From an uncultured bacterium (GTDB lineage Bacteria; Patescibacteriota; Gracilibacteria; Absconditabacterales; Absconditicoccaceae), in assembly GCA_946611795.1 (NCBI GenBank), contig CAMOEC010000043.1:60-64059 (forward strand): DNA of 64,000 bases, read 5' to 3'. Below are positions 33,701 through 54,113 of the stretch, piece by piece (the stretch's first letter is position 1; the number at the start of each line of letters is the position of its first letter). The position numbers were made by a program, and so were the translations under genes. A model generated the notes under the pieces. It was not told where the DNA came from and did not search any database. It saw only the letters and a program-made list of their open reading frames with translations.

Positions 33701-35375
33701 CCCAAACTCTGTTTCCAAAGTCTATAAATGTTTCACAATCTGCTATTTGGCTTGGTTCTTCTGATCATGTTATACATGTTCAGTCTGGTTCCCATACTCT
33801 TTCCCTACATCAAAATATTGATATTCAGAACCAATATCTTCAACATTCTTCATTAAGTCTTGCATGTCTTTTTTCATTATTATATGTTTGATATTCAGTT
33901 TCCATGTTAAGAATATTGAATCATCTGTTTGCTTCTACTTGTGTTGAAAATAAATCATATGATGATCATATTCATTTTTTAGTAAGGTCAGTACTTTCAT
34001 ATTTTGTTTTTGCTGGGTTTATACTATCATTTATAATTGTTGAATAATTTACAAAATTATTAAGGTTTCTGTATGTTCCTCTATAAATACTGAAATCTTG
34101 AGGATCTGATATCGTGCTCGCATTTTTTCAGAAATAATAGAATTCATATGTGTCTTTGTATTCTGGAACATAACGTTTTATAAAAAAGAACCTTTTTCTT
34201 TTATCTCTCCATCTTTGATAGTAGATAGGGATAGTTAGCTTCATATCATATTTTTCAGTATATACTTTATTGTCGACATATTGTTCTAATTTATCATTTA
34301 TACTTTTGAAAATTCAGTTTGCATCTTCATTTCATAGCAATAATTGATCTTTTAGTTGTATTTTTTGATAATGACTGTCGTTTACTGTCCACCTGTCTGA
34401 AGCTTTTATGTTATCATCAACTGTTTTGAGAAGCGTTGTACTTATTGCTTCATGATAGTCTTTTAGGAATGATGATAATTTATTCTCAAGTAAAAGGGTA
34501 GGAGTAAATTCTGTTTTATTTTTTAATAGATTTTCTTTTGCCGTTTCAACAACGGGAATATGAACATTAACTGCTGCTAGTGTATCTTGTAATTCTCATA
34601 GTAAGTCAGCGTTTTCATCTTGTTGATTTAATTGAAGCATGTCGACAAGAAAATTTGTGTAGCGATGATATATTAGGTCTTCTGCAAATATCATCTTGTT
34701 CTTGTATAGTTGGTATGTCTCTCATAGAAAATTCTTTCCTAGTGCAATAAAGTCATCATACCATATTTTTTTCTCAACAAATTTTTTAGGATTATTATTG
34801 TATTTTTTTAATTTTTCGAAAAAATCATTATATTTTCCTGCATCATCAAGACTTATTATTCAGTGCCAAATTTCTGATTCTCCATTTGATTTGTTTTGAA
34901 TGAAATATCATTCTGATTCATTCCATATATATTTTTGATCAATGAAGTCTGTATAAGGATAAATTGATGGAAAAATATAGTTTTTGTATTTTACTACTGG
35001 AAGTGGTATATCTCACATTACTATTGTTCATATTAGGCGAGATGCACTTCATTTAAGTCAATCAAAGTATACGTTTTCAAGTAATTTTACTATTTCTGGT
35101 GCGTTGTATTCATTTGTGTTTAATGAAAATATAACTGCATTACTTCCTGGATATTTTTCTGGAATGTATTCGTCTGTGTATCGTTTGAAATTAGAATTTC
35201 AGCTTATTGAGTTATAGGTATTATTATCTATTAGTATTGCTACTAATGGATTTGTTGAATTTCATGATGTGGCTGCTTCAGCAACATTCCGGTTAACATA
35301 TCCTAGGTGTGATAATATATCCGCTCCAAGATACACTCCGAGAATTATCGATCATAAAATTTTTTTTATTTTCAT
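21750..35375 (-). CDS. giant secreted/surface protein, 4541 aa, single ORF under code 25
   Basis: ATG at 35373-35375, preceded by in-frame TAA at 35376-35378. My triplet-by-triplet scan of this minus-strand frame down to TAA at 21750-21752 found only TGA, with no TAA/TAG. Seven track fragments share this frame and each ends at TGA: 22434-22628, 23910-24125, 24237-24446, 25338-25571, 27387-27581, 32418-32639, 32649-32942. The N-terminus MKIKKILGSIILGVYLGADILSHLGYV resembles a signal anchor. Internal features are coiled-coil stretches, a Pro-rich (L/I)P segment and hydrophobic/Cys-containing segments. No family recognised. Confidence 0.75.
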
Positions 35376-39473: not shown

Positions 39474-40106
39474 TTATTGATATTTTATTTGCTTGTCTAT
39501 TAGTTCTTTGATAAAACTGTCGTAGAAAGCTACATTTACTGCTATTGTTTGTTGTATGTTTGTATCATAATTTTCAGAATTTATTTTGGTTGAATATTTT
39601 GAATACAGATATTGTACTGTTGAAACATCGTCATAGTTATAGTTAAGACTTATTTCTTTTGTTATTTCATTTTGTATGAGTGGCGCTTTTTCTAAGGCTT
39701 GTTTTATGCTTTCCGTATATGCCTGTATTAATCATCATACTCATAATAATGTTCATCAAAAATATCTTGTGACAACTGCTAATACGTTAAAAATAGGTTT
39801 TCAAGTTAGGACAGTTAGTATTGGTTTTCATGCTGTGTTACTAGGTTCTCAATCATCATTTGCTCTGTCTTGATGTGATGTTATATTCCAATTCATAAAA
39901 AGATCTTGATTAGCATCAACTCATAATCTTCGGGCATAACAGTTGTGTGTAGCGTCAAAATATTTTTTCTTTATTTTGGTTAATTCTTCATCTATTTCTT
40001 CTTTGGAGTTAACAGGAATTAATGTTGCAATAAATCTTGATCCTTTAATTTTAGGAATTTCATATTGGAAACTGTTTGAAAGGGTAGTGTATGTTAATTT
40101 TTCCAT
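39474..40106 (-). CDS. yigZ: IMPACT/YigZ family protein (UPF0029)
   Basis: IKGSRFIATLIPVNSKEE, ATHNCYA, DDGEPSNTAGKPIL, VVTRYFGGTLLGVGGLIQAY. Extends track ORF 39921-40106 through TGA codons. TAA at 39474-39476 confirmed by frame scan. Confidence 0.85.
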
Positions 40107-40125: not shown

Positions 40126-40728
40126 TTACCATCTTTTTCGTGATGGACATGCTTGTTGGATATTTATATGAGAAAATCATTGATGTTGAAGTGCATCTTT
40201 TATCGTATCTTTCATTAATTTAAGGTCATTTCATTGAACTGATTTTACAAATGAGCATCATGCAGTTTCAACTAGATTGATTGGATGTAGTGGTGGTAGT
40301 GAATTTCATTCTGGTGTTGATTTTGTTTTTACTCCCAGTGGTGTAGTTGCTGATGCTTGTCATGTAGTTAGAGCATAGTTTTCATTATCACACGTTATGT
40401 GTAGTATTTGGATATTTCTTCTGGCTGCATGTATGAGGTGTCCTATTCAGATTCAATAGGTGTCTCAGTCTCATGAAAGAGATATAACTGTTAATTTTGG
40501 ATTTGCTAGTTTAACTCAAATTGCAAATGGAATTCCTCTTCAATGAAGTGTTTCTGCTCAATATCATTCAAGATATTGGCTCATTTTACTATTACATCAA
40601 ATTCCAGTTACAATAACAGTGTCTTTTAGTGGTATTTCTAGTTCAGTTAGTGCTTGTTTGATTGCTATGTGTACTAAGTAGTTTCAACATCAAGGACATC
40701 GTTGAATTTTATTGGTATTATGTCTCAT
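40126..40728 (-). CDS. 2-oxoacid:ferredoxin oxidoreductase, beta (TPP-binding) subunit
   Basis: MRHNTNKIQRCPGCGNYLV..., LSGDGDTYGIGIGHLIHAARRN (GDGD TPP motif), ILHITCDNENYALTTGQ. 201 codons, TAA at 40126-40128. Confidence 0.85.
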
Positions 40729-40743: not shown

Positions 40744-42378
40744 CTAAATTATATCTTCATCAAAGATTGGATAGAGGTTGTATTTCCTTTGATGGTTTAT
40801 TTTAGTATTCCAGTCGTTATATAATTCACATTCTTTTCTTACTAGATCTTCTAATATTCAGCTTTGATTCATTTCTACAAATATTAGTTTTTCTATATTT
40901 TCATTGTTGTTATTTAGGAAATCTTTTAGTCTTTTATCAAATGGATAGAAACATTTTATTATGATAAGTCATAGTTCTTTTTTGTCCCTTATGAAATTTT
41001 CTATTGGATAACGGTTGATTCCCATTGTGATGTAAAATGTTTTTGCACTTGGATTTATTATTTCGTATCAGTAGAAATTGTCATTGAATTCTTTTCCTAT
41101 GAATGTGTTTATTTTCCTTAATCTTTTGTCCATCATCTCTTTTTTCGTATTTGGTTCTTCGTTTGTGAATCAGTATTCATCATGTTCGTATGAAGTTGTG
41201 ATGAATGATGTGTTTTCTGTTCAAGGTATGCTATATGGAGAAATTCAGTTTTCAGTTATTTGATATCTTTTAAAGGTATCTTCTTTTTGATTATTAATGA
41301 GGTCTCATCTTTTTATTTCTTCTGATTTAAGTGTTTTTTGATTAATTGATAAATAGCTTTCAGAAAGTTGTTTATCAACTAGCATTATTACAGGATGCTG
41401 ATATTGATCAGATCGGTTGAGTGCAAGTCCTGTGAAGTTATATGCTTCTTCAAATGTTGATGGGGCAAATACGATTGGTTTTGTATCTCAAAAACTTGCA
41501 TTTAATGCATAGTTTAGATCTCATTGAGCTGTAAATGTTGGTGTCCCTGTACTTGGTCAATCTCTTTGTGAGAGGATGTATACTCCTCATATTTCTGCTT
41601 GATTAGAAAATCAAATTGATTCTGTCATAAGAGCAAATCATCATCAACTTGTTCAACACATAGCTCTTTTTCAAGCAAATTTTGCTCATAGCATTGCCAT
41701 ACTGACTGCTATTTCATCTTCTCATTGATAAAAAGTTACTTTGTCTTCTTTTATTACTTCGTCTATTATTGATGATGCTGGAGTCATTGGATATGCAGCA
41801 TAGAAATCTAGTCATGCTGCAATTCATCATTTTGCAATGAGTTCATTACCGAACATGAAATGTCTTTTTTCTCAGATGGTTTTGTTGAAATGTATAATCT
41901 TACAAGCTTCTCATCAACATTGCATAATATAATCGTATCAATTTTCGAGGTCAGTAAAATTGATATCCATTTTTTCTTTAGTTAGATTTTTCTTTTTGAA
42001 TTGTTCTTCTAGTACTTGTTTTCATTCCTCTAGTGATATTCAAAAAACTCTTATTGCAGCTCAGAATGCAAAAGTATTTTTGTATGTGCATTTTTCATTT
42101 TTAAACATGAATGAGTTTTCTATATCATAGATTTTTTGATTTTTTTCTATTGCGTATTCATCATAAGCAAGGAAGTAATCTATTTTTTTACTAATGAAAA
42201 TCTCATCTTTATCTGATATATATAGAAAAAAACAGTTATTCTCTCATTTAATTACAGATGCGTATTCTTTGTCCCCGTAAACAGTATATCATTTGTTAGC
42301 TAAGACTTCTGCTAGTAAAAGTCATGATGTATTTACTCATGATCATGCTGGTCCTGAAAATCAAATACTTACTTGCAT
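40744..42378 (-). CDS. 2-oxoacid:ferredoxin oxidoreductase, alpha subunit with N-terminal gamma-like domain
   Basis: The N-terminus ISGPAGSGVNTSGLLLAEVLA is gamma-domain-like. It is followed by FMFGNELIAKGGIAAGLDFYAAYPMTPASSI and GKRAMCGTSGGGFALMTE. 545 codons, TAG at 40744-40746, 15 nt upstream of the beta subunit gene. Confidence 0.85.
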
Positions 42379-42424
42379 TTTTTAAGTTATGATAAAATAT
42401 TGTTTAAAGTATAGTAAAATGTTT

Positions 42425-42470
42425 TTTAAAAAAAAGAGAAAGGCTAGAGAAATTCTCATAGCCTTATTTT
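42425..42470 (-). terminator. rho-independent terminator directly after the TGA that ends ORF 42472-42789
   Basis: The minus strand reads aaggcta-tgagaatttctc-tagcctt, with extended pairing, followed by tctctttttttt. Confidence 0.7.
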
Positions 42471-42471
42471 C

Positions 42472-42789
42472 TCATTTATTAATGAGATATTTTTCCAAAA
42501 TACTTGTGGTATCGGTATCAAGCGGTTTTACCCAGCACTTGTCAAGTGTATCGTAGAGATAGTGATATCCGAGACCGACCCTAATGATGATTTTCCCATA
42601 GTTCTTAGGATCTTCGGCAATGGCTTTAGGGATGTGATTTTGTCTTTGTTGCGGCTTCCAGTTGCCTTTTGTGCTAACATTGTTGATGATGATAATGTTG
42701 ATGTCTTTTTCTTCTGTGTCCAAACTCATTGCTTCTTTTAGTGAATCAACTTCTACAATGTTCTCGTCATAAATTCTTTTTTCTTGCAT
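42472..42789 (-). CDS. island ORF C, hypothetical 105 aa, ends at TGA (under strict code 25 it would extend to TAA at 42382-42384)
   Basis: Complete standard-code ORF in the track, MQEKRIYDENIVEVDSLKEAM...ILEKYLINK. There is no internal TGA and all 4 Gly are GGN. The terminal TGA is followed immediately by a strong terminator hairpin. Confidence 0.6.
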   Translation of the reverse strand: MQEKRIYDENIVEVDSLKEAMSLDTEEKDINIIIINNVSTKGNWKPQQRQNHIPKAIAEDPKNYGKIIIRVGLGYHYLYDTLDKCWVKPLDTDTTSILEKYLINK

Positions 42790-42856
42790 AGTATTTTGTT
42801 TTTTGTTTCGGTATTAGCTACCGTAGCTATCATTATGTTGTATGAATGACATCTAT

Positions 42857-42885
42857 CTTATATTCAAACTTATTCTTAAATTCAA
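42857..42885 (-). promoter_or_regulatory. candidate promoter for island ORF C
   Basis: Minus strand TTGAAT, 17-nt spacer, TATAAG. A perfect palindrome agctac-c-gtagct (about 42816-42828) lies in the leader downstream of it. Confidence 0.3.
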
Positions 42886-42900
42886 GTTAAGGTTTTGTAA

Positions 42901-42938
42901 TTTTTAAAAAAGCTGAGATTGGAAATCCTATCTCAGCT
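42901..42938 (-). terminator. rho-independent terminator after island ORF B
   Basis: The minus strand reads agctgagat-aggatttcca-atctcagct followed by tttttt. Confidence 0.75.
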
Positions 42939-42950
42939 TGATCTGGGGTA

Positions 42951-43250
42951 TTACTTGAAAGCTTCTTTCAGAAGTTCATTAATGCTCCTTTTCTTCCTTG
43001 GAATGTCCAATTTTATGGCCTTACCATTTTTTTGTACCTTGATGGTCAGCCAGGTCGGAGTTGTTTCGAGAAGGATGACATCTTGAGTCCCTTCTGGTTG
43101 GCAGACTTTCCATTGGATTGAGTCTGTTCTTTCACGGGTCGCCGGAACTGGAGCAGTTTCTTCTGTGATTCTTAATTTGTAATACTCGCTTTTTGAATGA
43201 TTTGGGTAGCTATAATTTATAGCTTCTTCCCAATTTTTTAATTCTTTCAT
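42951..43250 (-). CDS. island ORF B, hypothetical 99 aa
   Basis: Complete standard-code ORF, MKELKNWEEAINYSYPNHSKSEYYKLRITEETAPVPATRERTDSIQWKV... TAA stop, no internal TGA, both Gly are GGN, codon endings richer in G/C than neighbouring genes. Confidence 0.6.
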   Translation of the reverse strand: MKELKNWEEAINYSYPNHSKSEYYKLRITEETAPVPATRERTDSIQWKVCQPEGTQDVILLETTPTWLTIKVQKNGKAIKLDIPRKKRSINELLKEAFK

Positions 43251-43287
43251 GTGTTGTATTTGTTTTTTTGTTTATTTATACATGTCT

Positions 43288-43315
43288 AATATATCTAAAT
43301 AACTATTAATGTCAA
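43288..43315 (-). promoter_or_regulatory. candidate promoter for island ORF B
   Basis: Minus strand TTGACA, 16-nt spacer, TATATT, about 35 nt upstream of the ATG at 43250. Confidence 0.35.
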
Positions 43316-43390
43316 TATTATTTTATAGTATAAATTTTTGTTTTGTGTATTGATTGTTTTTTGTCTAAATATTTTTTAAATTATAGTTTA

Positions 43391-43414
43391 AGCCCAGATG
43401 AATGCATCTGGGCT
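43391..43414 (-). terminator. GC-rich hairpin after island ORF A
   Basis: A 10-bp stem, agcccagatg / catctgggct, with a 4-nt loop lies 15 nt downstream of the TAA at 43429-43431. The trailing sequence is A/T-rich but is not a clean T-run. Confidence 0.5.
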
Positions 43415-43428
43415 CTGTCTTTCTGTTT

Positions 43429-43839
43429 TTAAGCAGCGATTTGTCGGATAATCATCTTCGAAAATTCTGAGAACTTGCGGTGAAACGTGTTGTCAATTGG
43501 AATGCTAAGTGTGCATTCTTTCTCAAAGTCGAATACTTTGATTTTGTTGTTTCGGAGTTTGATAACAATCGCATGTTCTTCTTTTGCCTCTTGTTTTAGG
43601 TCAAAGGGGAGTGAAGATCCATCACAACCTGGTTTCAAAATACTACCAGCCATCTTTTTGCTGATTTCTGCAAGATTAATCTGGCTCTTGTTTAACAGTT
43701 TCAGTAGCACTTCATTTACTTTGTTGAAGGCGACTTTTAGACCACGAAGGTCTTCCCAATCAATACTTGTCCACTGTGGGTGGCTCTCGGCTGTTGCTTC
43801 GATCGTTTCTTTTGGACGATCATTTGTCTTTTGATCCAT
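43429..43839 (-). CDS. island ORF A, hypothetical 136 aa
   Basis: The track ORF 43429-43890 begins at a GTG inside a hairpin. The first ATG is at 43839 (MDQKTNDRPKETIEATAESHPQWTSIDWEDL...). TAA stop, no internal TGA, 4 Gly all GGN. Many G/C-ending codons are present (gcc gag agc cac cag gac ctg ctc ccc). Confidence 0.6.
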   Translation of the reverse strand: MDQKTNDRPKETIEATAESHPQWTSIDWEDLRGLKVAFNKVNEVLLKLLNKSQINLAEISKKMAGSILKPGCDGSSLPFDLKQEAKEEHAIVIKLRNNKIKVFDFEKECTLSIPIDNTFHRKFSEFSKMIIRQIAA

Positions 43840-43908
43840 CAATTTTATAGCTTTTTTGGTTATCAGTATTGTATTACTGAGCCTTCTCACTATGAGAAGG
43901 CGAGATTT

Positions 43909-43936
43909 TTTATACTAATGTTAATTGCGATTTCAA
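43909..43936 (-). promoter_or_regulatory. candidate promoter for island ORF A
   Basis: Minus strand TTGAAA, 16-nt spacer, TATAAA. The predicted transcript would begin with the 9-bp hairpin gccttctca/tgagaaggc (43881-43901). Confidence 0.3.
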
Positions 43937-44005
43937 ATATAAATTAAAAAATCTGGAAATTCTTTTATATATCATTATTAGTTTATAGTGTTTTTATGAG
44001 TTTAA

Positions 44006-44857
44006 GTGTTATTTATTGTGAGCTATCTCTGAATTGTTATTACATTAATTTTGCTTGTTTGGGTTTGGATTTGGTTCTTTAATCGTGCTTTTTCTCATAT
44101 TGAAAAATCAATTAAGTGGAAGTTTTTATTGTGGTGAGTATTGTTAGTTTTTGTTCTTTTCTTGTACGATTTTTCTTTTGATTATATTTGATTGGATAGA
44201 AGTAATTTTTATATTCGTGATGTTTTTAATATTCAGTCGGTATCACTTTTTATCGCATATTGAATTGCTGTTCTTATCTTAATCACCTTGTTGTTTAAAA
44301 ATATTAAGAATAAAAATCTTATTTTAGAAATTTGAGTTGCTTTATTATCATTAGTTATTCTTTCATTATTCTGATGGGGATTCTGATTTACAGTTCTTAT
44401 TCTTTATTATATTCTTGCAGCTTTTACTGAAGAAATTTTTAAATTTACTGTATCTAATAATCAGGTTGAGAGTTCATGATTACATAAAATTTCTTTTTTG
44501 CTTTTTTTATCTGTTTTGATGTGATTATCTTTTAGTATTGCTGAGAATGTATTTTCTTTTATAATTCAATTTGTTCATTGAGATATTACTGTTTGATTTA
44601 TTTTGGGTAGGTGAGTAATCGCTTCTTTAATTCATTGTGTTTCAACTTGATTAATTGCTTTGATGTTATTAACTATAAAAAAGTGATGATTAATATTTAA
44701 GTATTTTGTGGCTCTTTTATTGTGAGCTTTTGTTCATATTGTGTATAATATTGCTATAGTTAATAATATTACTTGGATTGTTTTTGTATTGGTTATTTTT
44801 TCACTTGTAGCATTAAGTTATCTGTTTTTTAATATGGATGAGATTTATGATAATTAA
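44006..44857 (+). CDS. PrsW-family intramembrane metalloprotease-like membrane protein
   Basis: Polytopic membrane protein with AAFTEEIFKF (EExxK) and later IHCVSTGLIA / FVHIVYNIA His motifs. There is no in-frame ATG near the 5' end. The frame opens after TAA at 44003-44005, so a GTG start at 44006 (or 44018) is inferred. TAA at 44855-44857. Confidence 0.55.
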
Positions 44858-44868
44858 TTTTGTATGTA

Positions 44869-45180
44869 ATGAAGTCTTTTAAGGAGTTGGCACGTAAAAA
44901 TTTTTCTGAGAAATTTCAATGAAATCGTATGCTTTGAACTATAGCTTTAAATGTAGTTAAAGAATTATTTAGTATTGAAACCCCAGATGAGAATATCGTG
45001 AGAGAGACTGATGTAATTTCTTGATTTTTGAAATATAATGTTCTTTTTTTAAGAACTAATGATCAAGCATTGAAAATTGCTATTTTTAGAGATAAAAAGA
45101 AAGTGATTACCGAAATTAATAATCACTTTCATAATTTATGATATGAACAAGAAGTTTCTGAAATTCGTTTTACTTCTTAG
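44869..45180 (+). CDS. DUF721/DciA-like small protein (103 aa)
   Basis: MKSFKELARKNFSEKFQGNRMLGTIALNVVKELFSIETPDENIVRETDVISGFLKYNVLFLRTNDQALKIAIFRDKKKVITEINNHF... The general pattern of DUF721 is present. TAG at 45178-45180 overlaps the stop of the convergent giant ORF. Confidence 0.45.
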
Positions 45181-48100
45181 TTAATATAATTTGATATATT
45201 AACCATTTGAGAGTAATTATAATGGACCATAAATGATTTATCCCAAAGTCTAGCTCTTACTTGATCATCTTTTTGTAGTGTGTTATTATAGTCTGCGTAT
45301 TGACAAGGACATTGGTTACAAATTGGATTTATAAACGGACAATCTCAGTTAAGACAAAGAACATCAGGTGGAATAATAGGGCAACATGCGTATTCTCAAT
45401 TTGGGTCTCATGCAATATCAGGGCATGGATCTGTATTGTCGAAACATCAGTCACAGTCTCTATCTATTGATTTATTACAAATAGTATCGCATTCTCAATT
45501 GAGACATTCTGGTTTTTCTATTTTACAATCTTTACAAGTAATGTTTTCTGCATTGTTTGCATTAGGGTCACATTCTTCATAAGGTTCAGTAACTATTCCA
45601 TCTCAACATCTTGCTTTATTACAAACTTCTGGCATATCTTTTGCGCAGTTTTCACAATCTTCTCATTCATCAATTTCCCCATTTCAGCAGTTTGGATTCT
45701 TTGGATCAAATCTTTTACAATCAATTGTACAACTATTTTGGAAATCATTATTTATAAGTTTTCAGTTGTTTTCTCATAAATCACATACTTCTCCTAGTGA
45801 AGTTTCAATTTCACGATTTCAACAGTAATGATCTGGGTCAACATTTTTACAATCAGGAGAACATAAAATACCTGTTCAATTATCTGTTCAATTATCATCT
45901 CAATTATCGCAGTCTTCTCAAGGTTCAATTATTCTATTTCAACAAGAACCTGAACATTTCTTTGTATCATTAGGACATGTTAAACAATTTTCGTTGCTAT
46001 CAATTTCCCCATTATTACATGTATCTCAATGGTCAACACATTCATCTAATACGTCTTCAGGACATGATAAACAGTCTTCATCATCTTCTTCTACTCCATT
46101 TCAACATCATTTTACGTCCTTACATTCATAAGTACATATTCAGTCAGTACCATTTGCCCCTGTTCAGTTATCACATTGTTCTCAATCTTCAATTGTTTTG
46201 TTTCCACAATGTCACATACATTTAACTCATAAATCTTCAGGGCAGTTATTACAATTTTCATCATTTTCTATTTTACCATTTCAACAGTTTGGTCTTGTTA
46301 CTTTTTTACAATTTAAACTACATTGTTCGTTTATTCCATTTTGTTCTCAATCATCACATTCTTCTCATTCATCCTCATTTATATATCCGTTTCAACAGAG
46401 TTTGTTCGGATCTATATTTCTACAATCTTTATCACATAAATTATCTGTTCCGTTTTTATCTGATCAATGGTCGCATTCTTCTGCTATTTCAAGTATACCA
46501 TTTCAGCATGATCACCAGCACATACCTACATCAACGGAGCAGTTTCAACAATTTTCATCATTATTAACTACTCAGTCTCAACAGTTTGGAAGCTCTGGTT
46601 TATATAATGTACATAATTTTGTACATTTTTTATCTGTTCAATTATCTTTACCATGATCACATTCTTCTCATTCTTCTTGAGTTCAGTTTCAACAGATATT
46701 TGTTACTTTATTTTTACATTCTGTAGTACATTTTCAGTCTCTTCAATTTTTTGTTCAATTATCACATTGTTCTCGCGGTGTATCTATCTCTCAATTTCAA
46801 CATTTTGTTTGGCATTTATTACCAAGATCAAGAGCACAGTTCATACATGTTTCTCATAAATCAATTACACCATTACCACATGAAGTAGGCCGAAAGATTT
46901 TTGTACATATGTATGAACAAGAGCTTTTTCAGTTATTTTCTCAAGCATCACATTTTTCTCGTTCGGTATTTACTTCTCAATCTCAACAGTATGGTTGATT
47001 TTTATTTACTATTATTTCACATTTTTTAGAACATTTTTTATCTTTACCGTTATGATATCAGTGGTCACATTGTTCTCATTCTTCTAGAATTCCATTTCAG
47101 CAAGATGAGGTACATTTTCCTACATCCTCAGGACAATTTGAACAAGTTTCTGCTTTTTCAATTATTCAATTTCAACATATTGCTTCACATGGTCAATAAT
47201 CTAGAGGACATGTTTTACAGTTTTCTCATTTGTCTTTCTTTCAATTTCAACATTTATCAATTTTTTTACATTCTGAATCACAGTTCTTGTTTCTACCATT
47301 CTGTCTTCAATCATCACATTCTTCATTTCATTCTAATTTTCAGTTTCAACATACATTATCAGTGATACATTTTTCTCATAAATCTTCAGGACATGTTTGG
47401 CAAGTTTCATTTTTTTGAATCTCTCAATCTACACAAGTTCTAACTTTATTACAATCTTTTCAACAGATACTTGTTTTTAATCCATTTCTATTTCATAAAT
47501 CGCATTCTTCTCAGAATTCTTTTTTACCATTTCAACAAACAGGATTAGTGATTTTTCTACAATATTCATCACATGTATCTCAAGTTCAATTATTTGTTCC
47601 TTCATCGCATTGTTCTCATTTTTCCCTAATTTTATTTCAACAAATTGCTGTTGTTTTCTTACAATCAAATCAGCATTTACCATCGAATCAGTTTCTTGTT
47701 CAGTTATCACATTCTTCTCGTGGAGTATTTATTTTTCAGTCTCAGCAAGTATGTAGACATTTTGTTCATAAATCAGCAGGGCAGCTATTACATGTTTCTC
47801 ATAGATCCATAACACCATTTCAACAGTTTGGTTTTAAAGGATCTTTTTTTGTACATGTTAATGTACATATACTTGCAATTGTTCAATTGTTTTCTCAATC
47901 ATCACATTCTTCAGTCCCTTCTGGTGTGTGGTTTCAACATGTTTGGTTTGGATTTACTGTTTTACAATCTGTTCAACATAATCAATCATATCCATTGTTG
48001 TTTGAACCATTATCACATTCTTCTCAAGGTTCTTTAATTCCATTTCAGCATGATCAAGTACATTTTCCTACATCTCTTGTACAAGATTTACAATCTTCAG

Positions 48101-51100
48101 CAGCTTCAATTTTATTATTTCCGCAGTATGCATTACATTTTCAGACGTCTTTTTCGCATGATTTACAATCTTCATCTTCGTCGGCTATTTTATTTCAACA
48201 TCATGTTTCGTCTCAATCATCAATACATCTTTCTTTTAAATCTGCCTCACATGTTTCACAGGTTTCTCATATATCAATTTTCCCATTTGGACACTTATGT
48301 CTTTCAACACAACTTGTTGTACAATTATAATTACTTTTTCAATTTTTATTTTTTCAAAGGTCACATTCTTCATTTCATTCTTTTACTCCATTTCAACATA
48401 CAGGTGTTGGAGAGAGGTTGGTTGTACACCTGATTGAACAATTGTTTTTACTGTTTGTAGTTCAATTATCTCATCAGTCATCACAGTCTTCTCAACTTTC
48501 AATTGTGCCATTTCAACATATAGATTTTGTTGTTTTACATTCAAAAGAACATTTTCAATCATATCAATTATTTGTTCAATTATCACATTGTTCTCATATT
48601 TCTTTAATTCAGTTTCAACATTTTACTATACATTTATCTGCTAAGTCTACAGGGCAGGTTATGCATGTTTCTCAAATATCAACAATTCAATTACCACAAC
48701 TTGGTTTTGAGGCAATGTATTTAGTACACATTAACGTACATTGACTTCAAGGTTTTCAGTTATTTTCTCATTCATCACATTCTTCATAACCTTCATCTTT
48801 TACTCAATCTCAACATTTGTGTTCTGAATCAACTAGTTTACAATCTTCTGAACATATACCATCTAATCAATTTCTTTTTCAGTGATCACATTCTTCTCAA
48901 GGTTCTTTTGCGGCGTTTCAGCATGATCATTTACATTTTTTAACATCTTTAGTACAATTTGTACAATTTTCTGCTGGATCTACAACTCAATCTCAACAGA
49001 AACTTGTACATTTTTTCAAATCTTTTTCACAATTTTTACAAGTTTCTCAGTCTTCAACAATTCAGTTTCAGCATTCTCATGGTTTTTTTCAGTCGGTTAT
49101 ACAAATTTCTCACAAGTCTGCAGGACAGTTATCACATGTTTCTTTACTATCAATTTTATTATTTGGACAAGAATTTTTTTCTTTACAACTGCTTGTACAA
49201 TTGTATTTGTTTTTTCAGTTTCTGTTTTTTCATAAATCACATTGTTCTTCTCCTTCTATTATACCATTTCAGCATATTGGAGTAGGTGAAACAACCTTTG
49301 TACATTTATCGCTACATTTGTTTGGACTTTCTGTAGTTCAATTTAGTGCTCAATCATCACATTTTTCCTTTCATTCTTTTATTCAATTTCAACATATTGC
49401 TGTAGTTTTAGTACATTCGAAAGAACATTTTCAATCATATCAATTGTATGCTCAGTTATCACATTGTTCTCACACTCAAACTTTTCAGTCTCAACATTTA
49501 ATAGAACATTTTTCTCCTAAATCAACAGGGCAGGTTATGCATGTTTCTCATGGATCAGCAACGCCATTTCAACAGTTAGGGATTATTGGATTATATGTTG
49601 TACACATTTTTGTACAGGCACTTCCTTTTATTCAGTTCTTTATTCATAAATCACATTCTTCGTATTCTTTTACTCGGTTTCAATCTCAACAATAATTATT
49701 TGAATCGACAAGTTTACAATCATCAGAACATATACCATCTCATCAATTTAATGCACCATTATCACATTCTTCTCAAGGTTCTTTAATTCAGTTACCACAT
49801 GAACTAGTACAAATTCAGACATCCTTTGGACAGCTACTGCAGTCTTCAGCTTCTTCTACAATTCAGTTTCAGCAAAATCAAGAACATTTTCAGACGTCAT
49901 CTGAACAGTTGCTACAATTTTCTCATGGTTCAATAATTCTATTTCAACATTCTCATGGTTTTTCTCAATCGTTTATACAAATCTCTTTTAAGTCTTCAGA
50001 ACAATTATTACATTTTTCTTTATCATCTATTCCGCGGTTTGGACATGTATTTTTTTCTTTACAATCTGTTGTACAATTGTAGTTGTTTTTTCAGTTTTTG
50101 TTTGTTCATAGATCGCATTGTTCTTCTCATTCAATAGTACCATTTCAACATGTTGTTTTTGTAGAAATTTTAGTTGTACATCGTTTTGTACAATTACTAT
50201 TTGTACTTCAGTTTGCATTTCATTCATCACATTCTTCTCATGGTTCTTTTGTATTATTTCAGCATTTTGATGTTGTTATTTTACATTCGAAAGAACATTT
50301 TCAATCATATCAATTATTGGTTCAATTATCACATTGTTCTCATGTTTCTTTTATTCAGTTTCAACAAGATGCAGAGCATCTTTCTCATAAATCAATAGGA
50401 CATGTAGCACAAGTTTCTCATGAATCTATTACTCAGTTTCAACAATTTGGATTTCATGAATCATATGTTGTACATTTTAATGTACATAAGCTTGAAAGTT
50501 TTCAGTTATTGGCTCATTTATCACATTGTTCATATTCATCTTGTTTTCAGTCTCAACATTTGTGGTTCTTATCAACTATTTTACAATATTTAGAACATTT
50601 ACCATCTTGTCAGTTTAATTTTCAATTATCACATTCTTCTCAAGGTTCCTTAGTTCAATTACCACATGAACTAGTACAACTTCCTATATCAGTAGGACAG
50701 TTGCTACAGTTTTCACCTGGATCAACTTTCTTATTTCAACAATTTTTTGTTGCATTTTTACATTCTATAGTACAATTATTATTTTCTCAGTTTTGTTCTC
50801 AATTGTCACAGTCTTCTCAAACTTCTTTAATTCAGTTTCAACAACTAGTAGTACATTTTTCTCCTAAATCAACAGGACATGTTATACATGTTTCACCTGG
50901 ATCAATAACTCAGTTTCAGCAATTAGGTTTTATTGGATTGTATCTTGTACACATTTTTGTACATTGGCTACTAATTTTTCCATTATTGCTTCATTTATCA
51001 CATTGTTCAAATTCATCTTGTTTTCAGTCTCAACATTTATGATTTTTATCAACTATTTCACAGTATTTAGAACATTTACCATCTTGTCAGTTTAATTTTC

Positions 51101-54100
51101 AACTATCACATTGTTCTCAAGGTTCTTTAGTTCAGTTACCACATGAACTGGTACAGATTCAAATATCTTTTGGACAATTACTACAATTTTCTGCTTCTTC
51201 AACAATTCCATTTCAGCAAAAACTTGTACAATCTCAAACATCTTGAGGACAGTTAATACAGTTTTCTCATTTTTCTATTTTATCATTTCAACAAGATGTA
51301 AGTCAGTCGTCTAAACAAATGTCGTTTAAATCAACAGGGCAGGTAAGACAGGTTTCTCATTCATCATATTCTCCATTTCAACAATTAGGATTTTTGTAAT
51401 CGAATATTTTACATGCAATTGTACATTCTTTATCTTTTCAGTTATTATTTCAGTGATCACATTGTTCTCAAGCATCTATACTTCAGTTTCAACACAAACT
51501 AGGACATGTTTTCATATCTTGAGGACAGTTTTTGCAGGTTTCTGCAGGTTCTTGTATTCAGTTTCAACAAAAAGCAGTACATGTTCCAACATCTTCTTTA
51601 CATGTTTTACAATTTTCTCATAGGTCAATTATATTATTTCAACATTCTCAGTTTCATTCACATATGTCTCATATTCCGTTTAAGTTAAGATCAGCTTGAT
51701 CTGAATTAGGGCGGAAAGGACAATTATCAATACTACATATTCAGAAGTGTTTATCATATATTTTTTGGTCTACATTTTCTCAAACAACTAGTTTACAATC
51801 TGCTCTTTCTTTTGTAACGAGTCACAATAAATTAGGTATTCAGTCTCAGTCAATGTCGCTATCATATATATCAGGAATTCAATCTTTATCTAAATCGCAT
51901 TTTAATCATGAAAATAAAGCATCAACATTTTTAATATTTAATTGTGTTTGGTCTTTTAATCAGAAAGTTATTATTCCATTGTTTTCGAGTGTTAGGCTTC
52001 AATGTCTTAGTTTTACACTAACTTTTACAACTCATTGTTTGTTCGCTAATTCTAAAAATGAACTATTTTCTTTAGGTTTATCTAATGTTAATTGTTGTTG
52101 TGAATTAATTGTAGCACTTAGTATATCTCAATCTTTGATTGATAATCATTTGTTGTTAAATAGTAATCTAACTGAATTTTTTGTGAACGCAGGAATAACA
52201 TTATAGGTTTGATTTCAAATTATATTTGGATCTTGAATATTTAGAGTTGAGGTTGCAAACAGATATTCTCAATTACTTAAGTCTAATCTAATTGTAACAA
52301 TTTTTCTTCATTCTGTTTGAAAGGTATGTTTATTCGATAGTTTTGGGTCCATAAAACTTGTTCAATCTCAGAAATTCCATGAAATATTTTCGATTGTTGG
52401 TAGCGCTATATTTAAAGGAACTATTGAAGTTGTGACGCTTGAGTTAATTTGTTTTAAGAGAGGAGTGAACACGTTTGTAAATGTATAAAATTTTCAGTTT
52501 TCTTCACGAACATCTGTTGATGCTGTTGCAACAAGCATATCGTTTGCATATCCTTTTAGTGTTATATTATTTCTTACTCATGCTTTTAATGTCGTTGTGA
52601 ATTTTACTCAAGATTTTAAATGCTTTTTTTCTCAGGTTGCTTTATTTTCTCGTTCTAAATAGTCGTAATTTCATTGTGTTGCTGCTTCAAATGTAGCAGT
52701 ATCTTTATTAATTGTAGCTCTTTCTATGCTTAAGTTATAGGTTCTATCTGCTGTTTGACCAATATATATTTGGGCAGTTAATATGTGTTTTCTGTTTTGT
52801 TTTGTTGTAATTTTTGCTGTAATTGTATATAGACCCTGTCAATTGAAATTGTGAGATATTGTTTTTCAATTTCATTTTCCTAAGTCTCCAAAATCCCATT
52901 CGACATTTGTTGGTTCTTCTGGTCATGATATGCTAAATTGTACATTTGATGATGCTGTTTGACTAATTGCATCTACTTTAATAAAATATGCAGTATCTTC
53001 TGTTTGATTTCAAAATGGCGTTTTATCAGTTGAACGATATTTTTTTAGTAATCAATAATTTATTGTTCAGTTATCATCAACAAATCATATTGGGTTTTTA
53101 TCTCAATCTCAATCGATATCATCATCACAAACATCTCAAATATCATCACCATCAAAATCGTTTTGTGATGGATTATATGTTTGAGGACAGTTATCGTTAT
53201 GGTTTAATATTCAGTCACAGTCATAATCATTATCGAATTCACATCTAATATGGTTGTCATATGTGATTCGCATTTTTTCAACAGCATCGGCTGGCGTAAT
53301 TGCACTATTAAGAGCATATACATCTTCAGTTGTTATTATTCATGCTCTGATTAGGATATTTGTTTCTGCTATTGGCCAATTACCAGCTGACAGTTCGTTA
53401 AATGTTTGAAATCAACATTCTCATGGATTGAAGGTACAGTAAGCAAGGTATGTTGTGAATTCCAGTCTAGATGTTATTTGCTCAGCATTATCTTTTTCCT
53501 CTTTTGTTTTTATTAATGCTATTTGTGCAGTGTTTAAATATTTGTATCATGGATCTGTTGTTTTTAGTTTTCTATACCATTTTTTTATTTCTCATCGTTG
53601 AGCAGAGTAGTTAAACATATTCCTGTCAATGAGAAAGTTACTTAATGTTTGAAAAAATTCAGCTTTTGTTACATTCCGTTGTCAACAAAACTTTCATCAA
53701 CAGATTGATGTTCCTCTTGGGTATCAGTTCATTATATCGTTGCTTCATATATTCGCAACACAGTAGTAGTAATTTGTTCAATTATAATTTCATCATAAGT
53801 AATCTATATCTTCAAAATATTTTCATGGTAATTGTTGGAATACACTCCAAGATTCTTCATTATATCTTGAAGTCATTGTTTCATCAGGCATGATACAGTC
53901 CTGACATTCAATAGCGTTTAAAAGTCTAGTAAAATCATAACGGGTAAGTGTATTTCCTAATAATATATTTGAAATTGGTATATCTAATTGAATAATTTTT
54001 TGATAGAAACTTGAATTTTTGAAATCGTCGCTGGTTTGGGCCGTTGAAATGGCTCACAGAAGGAGAATTCAGAGCACGGGTATTAATAATAAAATTTTGT

Positions 54101-54113
54101 TTCGTTTTTTCAT
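45177..54113 (-). CDS. giant secreted cysteine-rich repeat protein, 2978 aa (SLH-like N-terminal segments, TSP3-like, PKD-like, then many CGNG...GE.CD repeats)
   Basis: ATG at 54111-54113, with upstream in-frame TAA at 54117-54119. My frame scan down to TAA at 45177-45179 found no TAA/TAG. N-terminus: MKKRNKILLLIPVLGILLLGAISTAQT. Calcium-binding-like DNCPQTYNPSQNDFDGDDIGDVCDDDIDGDGDKN and DKDGIPDIYDSDIDGDGIPN. PKD-like VEWDFGDLGKGNGKTISHNFNGQGLYTITAKI. Recurring units then follow, e.g. CGNGIQEPAETCKNCPQD, CGNGSIDAGEQCDHG, CGNGEYDEGETCLTCP, CGDGIVTEPYEECDP (myxococcal cysteine-rich repeat / DUF4215-like). Confidence 0.8.
48537..51170 (-). repeat. long-period, in-frame, near-identical internal duplications within the Cys-rich giant ORF
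   Basis: acattc[a/g]aaagaacattttcaatcatatcaatt recurs at 48537, 49413 and 50283, about 870 nt apart. A segment of about 170 nt starting ttatcacattgttca[t/a]attcatcttgttttcagtctcaacattt recurs at 50518 and 50995, offset 477 nt (159 codons), with only a few mismatches. Confidence 0.85.

What the first reader, a model, noticed from the sequence alone, without database searches (positions are those of the whole stretch)
42425..43940. Three-gene island that behaves like standard-code DNA inside a TGA=Gly genome
Three small minus-strand ORFs of 105, 99 and 136 aa are the only multi-gene stretch in the window that reads as intact ORFs under the standard code.
- None contains an in-frame TGA. All 10 Gly codons are GGN, whereas neighbouring korA/korB, prsW and trxB use TGA heavily for Gly.
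- Their codons are visibly richer in G/C endings (gcc, gag, agc, cac, cag, ctg, ctc, ccc, gac) than the A/T-ending host style.
- Each is monocistronic, with its own TTGACA/TATAAT-like boxes and its own GC-rich hairpin terminator.
- ORF C (42472-42789) ends at TGA, and its terminator hairpin with T-run begins almost immediately afterwards. If TGA is read as Gly, translation runs about 30 codons further (GENKAMRISLAFLFFLKN...) through the terminator to a TAA abutting the korA start. The transcript would then probably be non-stop.

The pattern fits a recent acquisition from a standard-code donor such as a phage, a plasmid or the host of an episymbiont. It could also be a cassette whose expression depends on code context. 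I recognise none of the three proteins. The leaders lack Shine-Dalgarno sequences, as host genes do, so a native origin with odd composition cannot be excluded.
Basis: partly seen in the sequence, partly recalled or inferred. Interest (0 to 1): 0.85.

Follow-up and report, generated by a model that had tools for sequence, protein, structure and literature searches.

The report
Standard-code genes inside a recoded genome
Three small genes in a bacterium that reads TGA as glycine and CGA/CGG as tryptophan have been inherited for a long time yet evolve as if read by the ordinary genetic code, so something other than the cell's normal decoding seems to read them.

Summary
ORFs A (43429-43839), B (42951-43250) and C (42472-42789) have GC3 of 0.38-0.42, against a host mean of 0.18 and maximum of 0.27. 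They contain no in-frame TGA; 73% of host Gly codons are TGA.

They are real protein genes (dN/dS 0.05-0.45). They sit at the same locus in at least 7 related lineages, and the C tree matches the flanking korA tree. Synonymous sites are saturated, yet GC3 stays high and TGA stays absent. This is not a recent transfer.

The key result concerns CGA/CGG. In the neighbouring host genes these codons share alignment columns with TGG, so they mean Trp, as predicted for Absconditabacteria. In the island they interchange with AGA/AGG/CGT/CGC, so they mean Arg. Island Trp is always TGG. TGA occurs only as a terminal codon: gene D in relatives, and C here.

The island is therefore constrained by the standard code at all three reassigned codons. 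Other scattered genes in related genomes show the same dialect.

The proteins are orphans with no sequence or fold match. The decoder is unknown. My best guess is translation by a standard-code partner cell, and this is inference only.

The parts
43429..43839 (-). ORF A, 136 aa, orphan protein ending in an invariant Q-x-A-A-A; stop TAA
   Evidence: ORF and translation. Orthologues are 60-74% identical, with dN/dS 0.08-0.18. GC3 is 0.40, with 0 TGA and 4 GGN. CGA at codons 96 and 132 (43552-43554, 43444-43446) interchanges with CGG, or with CAA/GAA, in other lineages. AF2 pLDDT is 72 and no fold match was found.
42951..43250 (-). ORF B, 99 aa, basic orphan protein; the fastest-evolving member; stop TAA
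   Evidence: Identity between lineages is 37-85%, with dN/dS 0.10-0.47. B differs sharply between L042 and L045, although their korA and C are about 99% identical.
42472..42789 (-). ORF C, 105 aa, acidic orphan protein; terminal codon TGA (42472-42474)
   Evidence: AF2 pLDDT is 90, with no Foldseek match in PDB or BFVD. The invariant Arg of the IIIRVGLGYH motif is coded by AGG, CGA, CGG, CGT or CGC in different lineages. Orthologues, and one allele of this same species (L005), end with TAA at the same position.
42382..42471 (-). Sequence that would be translated after ORF C if TGA is read as Gly: 30 codons (GENKAMRISLAFLFFLKN...) up to the TAA at 42382-42384
   Evidence: Some alleles cut the tail to 24 codons, and it overlaps the conserved terminator. 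It evolves as non-coding sequence.
43909..43936 (-). Promoter of A: TTGAAA (43931-43936), 16 nt spacer, TATAAA (43909-43914)
   Evidence: Read. It is conserved as TTGACA...TATAAA in L020, L025 and L029.
43881..43901 (-). Stem-loop at the predicted 5' end of the A transcript
   Evidence: dG -14.2 kcal/mol, z -4.7. It is present in 5 lineages, with compensatory pair changes in L025 and L029 (read). The '+ strand terminator' reported is this same hairpin followed by the complement of the -10 box.
43390..43415 (-). Hairpin after A (no T-run here; relatives have one)
   Evidence: dG -18.6 kcal/mol, z -5.1; comparison with relatives.
43288..43315 (-). Promoter of B: TTGACA-16-TATATT (11 of 12 consensus positions)
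42904..42939 (-). Intrinsic terminator after B (stem 42910-42939, then a T-run)
   Evidence: dG -16.7 kcal/mol, z -5.1; conserved in relatives.
42857..42885 (-). Promoter of C: TTGAAT (42880-42885), 17 nt spacer, TATAAG (42857-42862)
   Evidence: Read. The block CTTGA(A/T)TTTAA...TATAAG is conserved in 5 lineages.
42428..42465 (-). Intrinsic terminator after C (stem 42440-42465, T-rich tract 42428-42439)
   Evidence: dG -12.4 kcal/mol, z -3.2. AAGGCT..AGCCTTTCTCTTTTTTTT is conserved in all lineages, with compensatory stem changes.
40744..42378 (-). Flanking host gene korA (POR_N), written in the reassigned code: 35 TGA for Gly, and CGA at a Trp column
44018..44857 (+). Flanking, divergently transcribed membrane protein (279 aa) written in the host dialect
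   Evidence: It has no Pfam hit.

Best explanation
A, B and C are real, vertically inherited protein genes. Related lineages carry two further genes, D and E, at the same locus.

These genes evolve under the standard genetic code:
- TGA is never a sense codon and is used as a stop.
- CGA and CGG mean Arg.
- Trp is coded only by TGG.

The genes on either side use TGA for Gly and CGA/CGG for Trp.

Each island gene is its own transcription unit. It has a near-consensus sigma-70-type promoter, an A-rich leader without a Shine-Dalgarno sequence, and a hairpin terminator. A also has a stem-loop at its predicted 5' end.

The island is one example of a small class of such genes scattered through related genomes.

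Purifying selection acts on the standard-code reading. The functional products must therefore be made by a decoder that reads the standard code.

Shown: the standard-code constraint, its persistence through speciation, and its restriction to in-frame codons.

Inferred: the decoder is not the cell's usual tRNA set. Most likely it is the translation machinery of the standard-code partner cell on which such episymbionts live. The transcripts, or the DNA, would reach that cell. The genes would then be effectors built to be expressed in the other cell.

The biochemical function of the proteins is unknown.
For: **1. They are protein genes.** dN/dS is 0.05-0.45 in five families. No Rfam or tRNA hit was found.

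**2. They are old and vertically inherited.**
- The locus is the same in W, L024/L042/L045, L020, L025/L032/L034, L029, L039 and L044.
- The korA and C neighbour-joining trees are identical in topology over 10 sequences.
- More than 40 assemblies show the same junctions.

**3. The composition is at equilibrium, not drifting towards the host's.**
- At identical residues, same-codon counts equal the shuffle expectation (for C, 29 observed against 30.0 expected).
- GC3 nevertheless stays at 0.36-0.45 in most lineages.
- The island's intergenic DNA is 20-29% GC, like the host's.

**4. TGA is absent as a sense codon.**
- 0 of 71 Gly codons in five lineages, and 0 of 308 in all distinct CDSs.
- No TGA lies between the ATG and the natural end in 92 distinct reading frames.
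- Invariant Gly columns switch among GGA, GGT, GGC and GGG but never to TGA.
- The avoidance exceeds that of ribosomal proteins L11 and L1 (4 of 31; Fisher p = 0.007).
- It applies only in frame: TGA counts by frame are 0/37/85, against 0/27.5/79 in codon shuffles.

**5. CGA and CGG carry different meanings in host and island genes.**
- In host korA, korB, Impact and ClpB, 15 of 17 columns holding CGA/CGG also hold TGG. None holds another Arg codon. An example is the W of WCPGCG in korB: CGA 44, TGG 6, CGG 2.
- In the island, 0 of 12 such columns hold TGG and 8 of 12 hold AGA, AGG, CGT or CGC.
- Fisher p = 1.8e-6 and 1.2e-4.
- All 12 conserved island Trp columns are TGG only. In 12 host genes of the window, 13 of 35 Trp codons are CGA or CGG.
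- The CGA/CGG-to-Trp reassignment was predicted for Absconditabacteria by Shulgina and Eddy 2021 (PMC8629427).

**6. TGA sits exactly where homology ends.**
- D ends R-D-TGA in 7 distinct variants. The tails that follow are 2-24 codons long, not conserved, and frameshifted between lineages.
- C in this species has TGA where orthologues have TAA.

**7. Other genes in related loci share the dialect and the architecture**.
- A PIN-PhoH gene has 30 GGN and 0 TGA.
- A membrane-protein family is TGA-free in 3 diverged lineages.
- In these genes CGA/CGG fall inside basic clusters, as expected for Arg.
Against: - No decoder was identified. Nothing here shows transfer of RNA or DNA to another cell.
- The leaders lack a Shine-Dalgarno sequence, like the host's own genes. 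The promoters are of the type the host itself would use. The expression signals therefore do not point to a foreign cell.
- The class includes membrane proteins and a PIN-PhoH ATPase, which are not obviously effectors.
- This window holds only 2 CGA codons in the island. The CGA/CGG argument rests on comparison across lineages.
- The L029 lineage has lower GC3 (0.24-0.31), so the GC3 shift is not uniform.
- Whether these genomes also encode RF2 or an Arg-type tRNA for CGA/CGG could not be checked. No relevant tRNA lies in the 60 loci scanned.
- The partner organism, and even the episymbiotic lifestyle of this lineage, are assumed from what is known of the phylum. They were not shown here.
Confidence: 0.45

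Rival explanations
1. Own-machinery model. The genes are native and are translated by the cell's usual tRNAs. TGA is avoided because it is a poor or starvation-sensitive codon. GC-ending codons are favoured for mRNA stability or for codon-biased regulation. CGA/CGG positions simply tolerate Trp.
For: - Ribosomal protein genes L11 and L1 also avoid TGA (4 of 31), and an HU-like gene in L052 has 0 of 8.
- The expression signals look native.
- The island proteins are poor in Gly: 3.3% against 7.9% in host genes.
Against: - Highly expressed host genes move GC3 down (0.12-0.15), not up. They never use the rare codons that the island uses.
- Avoidance of TGA is absolute and stronger than in ribosomal proteins.
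- An invariant Arg inside a conserved motif would alternate between Arg and Trp across lineages (C column 71).
- No island CGA/CGG column ever shows TGG, and no island Trp column ever shows CGA/CGG.
- A conserved terminal TGA in D is odd if TGA is so strongly disfavoured.
Confidence: 0.12
2. Decoding switch inside the symbiont. In some state (a life-cycle stage, stress or phage infection) the cell reads TGA as stop and CGA/CGG as Arg. This would need RF2 and an Arg-tRNA, or loss of the reassigned tRNAs. Only these genes would then be translated correctly.
For: - It has the same code evidence as the main explanation.
- Every host gene in the window carries at least 2 TGA, so such a state would spare only this class.
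- Phages are known to switch codes during infection (discussed in PMC10746230).
Against: - No RF2, no Arg-type tRNA(UCG/CCG) and no switch machinery was seen in any sequence held here.
- tRNAs are long-lived, so a clean switch is hard to achieve.
- No cellular precedent is known to me.
Confidence: 0.12
3. External reservoir. The cassette is kept in the standard dialect because it is repeatedly replaced by copies from a phage, plasmid or other element that replicates in standard-code hosts.
For: - Some predicted phages of this phylum lack in-frame TGA, and follow TGA stops with backup stops (PMC10746230).
- B shows allelic replacement between near-identical backgrounds.
- Gene content at the locus varies: A-B-C, A-D-E-B-C or B-C.
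Against: - The C tree equals the korA tree.
- There is no homologue in IMG/VR, INPHARED or 1.84 billion representative proteins outside this clade.
- There are no integrase, att or phage genes nearby.
- The published survey found all prophages of this phylum to be dense in in-frame TGA.
Confidence: 0.08
4. Recent horizontal acquisition from a standard-code donor, not yet adapted to the host's composition.
For: Atypical GC3 and the absence of TGA are the classical signs of foreign DNA.
Against: - Present at the same locus in all close lineages, and co-diverging with korA.
- Synonymous sites are saturated while composition is unchanged.
- No donor homologue was found.
- The amino-acid composition is host-like: rich in Lys, Ile and Asn.
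Confidence: 0.03
5. Artefact: a chimeric assembly, or non-coding RNA genes that happen to look like ORFs.
For: In AT-rich genomes, structured RNAs are richer in GC and can carry chance ORFs.
Against: - The junctions are identical in more than 40 independent assemblies.
- dN/dS is well below 1, with randomised synonymous sites.
- There is no Rfam match.
Confidence: 0.01

Closest known systems
'Code-11-compatible' phages predicted to infect Absconditabacteria and Gracilibacteria (Liu et al. 2023, mBio, PMC10746230)
   Same: - Genes without in-frame TGA, associated with a host that reads TGA as Gly.
- Where TGA is used as a stop, another stop follows soon after. Island gene D shows this, with a backup stop 2-24 codons on.
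   Different: - The island is chromosomal, tiny and not viral. It has no phage genes and no homologue in viral collections.
- It is inherited vertically.
- That study found every integrated prophage in these phyla to be dense in in-frame TGA.
- It did not consider CGA/CGG.
Recoded prophages residing in standard-code bacteria, which carry suppressor tRNAs and release factors and switch code during infection (Borges et al. 2022, as summarised in PMC10746230)
   Same: One stretch of a bacterial chromosome is written in a different genetic code from the rest.
   Different: - The direction is reversed: standard code inside a recoded genome.
- No code-switch machinery is encoded nearby.
- The genes are dispersed cellular genes kept through speciation, not a mobile virus.
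Genes carried by one cell but built for expression in another: Agrobacterium T-DNA genes, and the leading-region genes of conjugative plasmids (from my own knowledge)
   Same: The 'language' of the gene matches the recipient cell's expression system, not the carrier's. This is what the code evidence suggests here.
   Different: - No transfer apparatus, border or oriT sequence, or recipient was identified.
- This is an analogy for the proposed mechanism, not a tested relationship.
Phage 'morons': single genes flanked by their own promoter and terminator, with a composition unlike their neighbours (from my own knowledge)
   Same: Each island gene has its own promoter and hairpin terminator and an atypical composition.
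   Different: They are not in a prophage. They are conserved at one chromosomal locus across lineages.

Membership tests
Recently acquired genomic island (horizontal transfer, not yet adapted to host composition) | Composition and codon usage unlike the host's | tested here: met
   GC3 is 0.38-0.42 against a host mean of 0.18, and there is no TGA.
Recently acquired genomic island (horizontal transfer, not yet adapted to host composition) | Patchy presence among close relatives, or a gene tree that disagrees with the host tree | tested here: not met
   Families A-E were found only in loci with korA segment identity of 83% or more. One locus at 83% (L049) lacks them. The C tree has the same topology as the korA tree.
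Recently acquired genomic island (horizontal transfer, not yet adapted to host composition) | Composition still drifting towards the host's (not at equilibrium) | tested here: not met
   Synonymous sites are randomised between lineages while GC3 and TGA-freedom are kept.
Recently acquired genomic island (horizontal transfer, not yet adapted to host composition) | Identifiable donor homologues, or mobility genes, att sites or a tRNA flank | tested here: not met
   No homologue exists outside the clade. There is no integrase or tRNA nearby.
Code-11-compatible phage of Absconditabacteria/Gracilibacteria (Liu et al. 2023) | No in-frame TGA; TGA stops backed up by nearby TAA or TAG | tested here: met
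   The backup stop lies 2-24 codons after TGA in D, and 24-30 codons after it in C.
Code-11-compatible phage of Absconditabacteria/Gracilibacteria (Liu et al. 2023) | Phage hallmark genes, or relatives in viral sequence collections | tested here: not met
   There is no significant PHROG hit (all E above 0.01). There is no relative in IMG/VR or INPHARED.
Code-11-compatible phage of Absconditabacteria/Gracilibacteria (Liu et al. 2023) | Targeted by CRISPR spacers of the host | not tested
   No spacer set was available.
Highly expressed native genes with translationally optimal codons | Codon usage shifted in the same direction as ribosomal protein and chaperone genes | tested here: not met
   L11, L1, trigger factor and GroEL have GC3 of 0.12-0.15. 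They do not use CCC, CCG, CTG, AGG or CGG at all, and rarely GCG or CTC, whereas the island uses them all.
Structured non-coding RNA genes | A match to an RNA family, or conservation of structure rather than of a reading frame | tested here: not met
   There is no Rfam hit. The reading frames are under purifying selection.
Anti-phage defence, toxin-antitoxin or immunity gene arrays | Recognisable defence, toxin or immunity domains | tested here: inconclusive
   There is no significant hit in PADLOC, Pfam or NCBIfam. Small size, fast evolution of B and variable gene content are compatible with such arrays but are not diagnostic.
Genes decoded by the standard genetic code | TGA is not a sense codon but can be a stop; CGA/CGG are synonymous with other Arg codons; Trp is coded only by TGG | tested here: met

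The most novel reading that the evidence does not exclude
The symbiont keeps a set of genes written in its partner's genetic code because their transcripts, or their DNA, are passed into the standard-code host or prey cell. That cell's ribosomes translate them. These would be nucleic-acid effectors between bacteria. The hairpin-capped monocistronic mRNAs, the standard-code constraint and the less AT-biased codon usage would all be adaptations to expression in the other cell.
Probability: 0.25. Interest if true: 0.97.

Novelty: new variant of a known kind. Interest (0 to 1): 0.88.

Why it matters
A difference in genetic code is usually seen as a firewall. It applies to a whole genome and isolates it from gene exchange.

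Here a recoded bacterium has kept a few cellular genes in the standard code through the divergence of several lineages. Those genes sit next to genes in which the same codons mean something else.

If this holds, one of two things is true:
- one cytoplasm decodes the same codons in two ways at different times; or
- some genes of an episymbiont are read by another cell's ribosomes.

Both are unreported, as far as two full-text searches and my own knowledge go.

The finding also gives practical handles.
- These genes are natural markers for asking how recoded Patescibacteria interact with their hosts.
- Their codon usage might help to identify the host.
- Gene callers that apply code 25 uniformly mistranslate them. 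They would read Trp for Arg if CGA/CGG are set to Trp, and they add false C-terminal tails after TGA.
- The result is directly testable with existing metaproteomes.

Tried and rejected
**Searches that found nothing.**
- Rfam at gathering and at permissive thresholds, and a tRNA scan of the window.
- Pfam, PHROGs, NCBIfam and PADLOC on A-E: no significant hit. The best was PSY3 at 20.9 bits, below its 25-bit cut-off.
- Profile searches of A and C against PDB sequences.
- Foldseek of both AlphaFold models against PDB, and of C against BFVD: all TM-scores below 0.35.
- A profile of A against 1.84 billion representative proteins. The only hits outside the clade were repeat-rich long proteins, which I regard as compositional artefacts.
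- IMG/VR and INPHARED: no relatives.

**Ideas tested and dropped.**
- A and C as distant paralogues, suggested by a shared strand-turn-strand motif. hhalign gave a probability of only 1.5%.
- Nei-Gojobori pS values of 0.8-0.9 hinted at selection for synonymous divergence. A shuffle test showed same-codon counts at chance, so this was dropped.
- The leader motif AAAAACAAATACA is not significantly enriched in the window: 37 matches against 26 +/- 5 expected.
- An antisense ORF spans A in all lineages. It is explained by A's lack of Tyr codons, and there is no such pattern in B-E.
- TGA as an avoided DNA or RNA motif: it is not depleted out of frame.
- A tRNA scan of 60 related loci for tRNA(UCA), tRNA(UCG) or tRNA(CCG) found none.
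- A guess that a GC-rich stretch in L052 is an SRP RNA got no Rfam support.


Full report
**1. What is there**

The window belongs to a recoded, AT-rich genome (29% GC).
- Reading TGA as sense raises ORFs of at least 100 aa from 12 to 61.
- Hallmark glycines are TGA: the GGM tail of GroEL, GSGPAG of TrxB and GFSGPAGSG of korA.
- In 40 host genes, 73% of Gly codons are TGA and mean GC3 is 0.177, with a maximum of 0.27.

Three minus-strand ORFs lie between korA (40744-42378) and a divergently transcribed membrane-protein gene (44018-44857). They are A (43429-43839, 136 aa), B (42951-43250, 99 aa) and C (42472-42789, 105 aa).
- Their GC3 is 0.40, 0.38 and 0.42.
- They hold no TGA in 340 codons, and all 10 Gly codons are GGN.
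- No host chunk of the same size reaches GC3 0.30.
- They are the only complete genes in the window that remain intact under the standard code.

Each ORF has its own promoter: TTGAAA-16-TATAAA, TTGACA-16-TATATT and TTGAAT-17-TATAAG. Each has an A-rich leader without a Shine-Dalgarno sequence and a stable hairpin after the stop. A also has a stem-loop at its predicted transcript start.

**2. They are genes, and they are not an artefact**

The same cassette, with the same junctions, is found in more than 40 independent assemblies. One of them is an NCBI metagenome-assembled genome that is 98% identical to the window over 20 kb.

Orthologues at 37-85% amino-acid identity occupy the same locus in other lineages. 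Some lineages carry two more families, D (106 aa) and E (123 aa), between A and B. One lineage has only B and C.

Nei-Gojobori dN/dS is 0.05-0.45 for all five families. Rfam and tRNA searches are empty.

**3. It is old and vertically inherited**

I fetched 80 loci through a Gly-free korA peptide.
- Families A-E were found only where the korA segment is at least 83% identical; one locus at 83% (L049) lacks them.
- Loci at 71-73%, and at 54% or below, lack them.

Neighbour-joining trees of korA and of C over 10 sequences have the same topology.

Synonymous sites are saturated. At identical residues, the number of identical codons equals the expectation from shuffling codons within amino acids. 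For C, W against L025 gives 29 observed and 30.0 expected.

GC3 nevertheless remains 0.36-0.45 in most lineages, and 0.24-0.31 in L029. The flanking korA and korB there have GC3 of 0.14-0.17 and 14-39 TGA each. The island's intergenic DNA is 20-29% GC.

Randomised synonymous sites with unchanged composition mean the composition is at equilibrium. This is not foreign DNA on its way to resembling the host. Recent acquisition is therefore rejected.

No donor was found either. A profile of A against 1.84 billion representative proteins found only its own clade plus repeat artefacts. IMG/VR and INPHARED hold no relatives.

**4. TGA is excluded as a sense codon by selection**
- Over five lineages, 0 of 71 Gly codons are TGA.
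- Over all distinct CDSs, 0 of 308 are TGA.
- In 92 distinct TAA/TAG-bounded frames, the only in-frame TGAs lie upstream of the start codon or at the natural end.
- Invariant Gly columns switch freely among GGA, GGT, GGC and GGG.
- The avoidance exceeds that of ribosomal proteins L11 and L1 (4 of 31; p = 0.007).
- It is restricted to the reading frame. Out-of-frame TGA is as frequent as in codon shuffles.

The cause therefore lies in decoding, not in a DNA or RNA motif or in mutation bias.

Highly expressed host genes shift GC3 downward and avoid or shun the rare codons that the island uses. Ordinary translational optimisation does not explain the pattern.

**5. The decisive test: CGA and CGG**

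Shulgina and Eddy (2021, PMC8629427) predicted that Absconditabacteria read CGA and CGG as Trp, in addition to TGA as Gly. I tabulated the codons in each alignment column for host and island genes from all loci.

In host genes (korA 56 CDSs, korB 52, Impact 23, ClpB 12):
- 15 of 17 columns containing CGA/CGG also contain TGG.
- None contains AGA, AGG, CGT or CGC.
- The W of the WCPGCG motif of korB is CGA 44, TGG 6, CGG 2. In the window this codon is 40699-40701.

In the island:
- None of the 12 columns with CGA/CGG contains TGG.
- 8 of the 12 contain other Arg codons.
- The invariant Arg of GKIIIRVGLGY in C is AGG in W, CGA in L042, L045, L032 and L025, CGG in L020, CGT in L039 and L029, and CGC in L044.
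- D column 59 is AGA in L025 and CGA in L032, whose korA proteins are 97% identical.

The two contrasts give Fisher p = 1.8e-6 and 1.2e-4.

All 12 conserved Trp columns of the island are TGG only. In 12 host genes of the window, 13 of 35 Trp codons are CGA or CGG.

The island thus evolves under the standard meaning of all three reassigned codons. Its immediate neighbours evolve under the reassigned meanings.

**6. TGA as a terminal codon**
- D ends ...R-D-TGA in seven distinct variants. What follows is 2-24 codons long and is frameshifted between lineages, so it evolves as non-coding sequence.
- C ends with TAA in six other lineages, and in one allele of this very species (L005).
- In the window and in 10 further distinct alleles, that codon is TGA.

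Under the host's decoding, C would gain a 24-30 residue hydrophobic tail. That tail is read through the conserved terminator. If transcription stops at the T-run (42428-42439), the mRNA would have no stop codon. Under the standard code, the TAA-to-TGA change is silent.

Among the TGA alleles I counted 11 synonymous and 10 non-synonymous changes. This is compatible with continued constraint, but the sample is small.

**7. A wider class**

I examined 384 code-25 ORFs from the window and the more distant loci.
- TGA makes up 58-69% of Gly codons in genes with GC3 below 0.30.
- It makes up 14-17% in genes with GC3 of 0.30 or more.

Conserved TGA-free examples include:
- a PIN-PhoH ATPase (L052 10531-11868; 30 GGN, 0 TGA; Pfam);
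- an adjacent membrane protein;
- a membrane-protein family that is TGA-free in three diverged lineages at one syntenic site.

These genes also have consensus-like promoters, A-rich leaders and hairpin terminators. Their CGA/CGG codons fall in basic clusters typical of Arg.

The island is one instance of a minority 'standard-dialect' gene class. I could not measure how large the class is in a whole genome.

**8. What the proteins are**

All five families are orphans.
- They are soluble and have no signal peptide or hydrophobic segment.
- A, B, D and E are basic, and C is acidic.
- A ends in an invariant Q-x-A-A-A. This resembles a C-terminal degradation tag; that comparison comes from my own knowledge and was not tested.
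- AlphaFold gives a confident model for C (pLDDT 90) and a fair one for A (72). Neither has a structural neighbour.

Their function is unknown.

**9. How it most likely works**

Shown:
- Selection sees the standard-code reading of these genes.
- This has held through the divergence of the lineages.
- It acts on in-frame codons only.

One cytoplasm with one tRNA set cannot read CGA as Trp in korB and as Arg in gene C. The functional products must therefore be made by a decoder with standard rules.

My ranking of the possibilities is inference.
- (a) The ribosomes and tRNAs of a standard-code partner cell, reached by the transcripts or the DNA. I consider this the most economical option. Such a decoder is always near an episymbiont. 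It would also explain the codon usage of a moderate-GC organism and the hairpin-capped monocistronic transcripts. My probability is about 0.25-0.3.
- (b) A temporary change of decoding inside the symbiont (about 0.12).
- (c) Own decoding, with tolerated Arg/Trp flips and special codon selection (about 0.12).
- (d) Constant replacement from an outside reservoir (about 0.08).
- (e) Recent transfer (0.03).
- (f) Artefact (0.01).

The remaining probability belongs to mechanisms I have not thought of.

Caveats:
- The organism's assignment to Absconditabacteria rests on its code features only.
- Its lifestyle is assumed from the literature on the phylum.

**10. Comparison with what is known**

The closest described case is the set of 'code-11-compatible' phages predicted for these phyla. 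Their genes lack in-frame TGA, and their TGA stops are followed by backup stops (PMC10746230).

The island shares those two properties but fails every phage criterion. The same study found all integrated prophages of these phyla to be dense in in-frame TGA.

Recoded prophages in standard-code hosts are the mirror image, and they carry their own switch machinery.

In two full-text searches I found no report of cellular, vertically inherited genes kept in a code different from that of their own chromosome. I rate the finding as a new variant of a known kind, namely intragenomic code mismatch. If explanation (a) or (b) is right, it would be categorically new.

Noticed in passing
window 40699-40701 (korB codon 10), 10668-10670 (SufB codon 256), 39930-39932 (Impact codon 59) and 10 further CGA codons listed: In host genes, CGA/CGG codons sit at conserved Trp positions (WCPGCG, VENWS). 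This gives independent support from the window for the predicted CGA/CGG-to-Trp reassignment. Translation under table 25 therefore mislabels these residues as Arg.
   Followed up: yes
L052 9873-11868; L092 7173-7634; L080 13097-13549; L067 8060-8560; L082 12064-12441; L050 3635-4105: These are other TGA-free genes with raised GC3 in related genomes: a PIN-PhoH ATPase and several small membrane proteins. Each has its own promoter-like boxes and hairpin terminator. Their CGA/CGG codons lie in Arg-like contexts.
   Followed up: partly
L042 1107-1403 versus L045 6025-6312: Gene B differs strongly between two genomes: 85% against 66% identity to the window's B. Their korA and C are about 99% identical. 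This suggests allelic replacement or diversifying selection on B.
   Followed up: partly
L005 3627-3997: This allele of the window's own species encodes an identical C protein. It ends in TAA and is followed by a different terminator hairpin (GGGAAATGACATAATAATGTCATTTCC). It is a structural variant at the 3' end of the island.
   Followed up: no
window 43502-43918 (+): The antisense frame of A that shares its third codon positions is open over almost the whole gene in all five lineages examined. It can be explained by the scarcity of Tyr codons in A. B-E show nothing similar.
   Followed up: partly
window 43429-43443: Protein A ends in Q-x-A-A-A in all 16 sequences aligned. This is reminiscent of C-terminal Ala-Ala degradation tags.
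   Followed up: no
window 21750-35375 and 45177-54113 (both minus strand): These are two giant genes of 4541 and 2978 codons, each with about 250-270 in-frame TGA. The second contains internal repeats that are 72-80% identical (self-matches).
   Followed up: no
window 2189-4807 (+): This 872-aa protein has long tandem peptide repeats (EEAKKA and AETQSTATQ units).
   Followed up: no
L052 about 11870-12245: An unusually GC-rich stretch of about 120 nt lies between the enolase gene and the PIN-PhoH gene. I guessed it might be a small RNA, but Rfam gave no match.
   Followed up: partly
L025 3545-3595; L020 7259-7311: The short D-E spacer keeps a conserved nucleotide block (TTCAGTCTCT) just after D's terminal TGA. 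The reading frame across it is not kept. It may be a regulatory or translation-coupling element.
   Followed up: no
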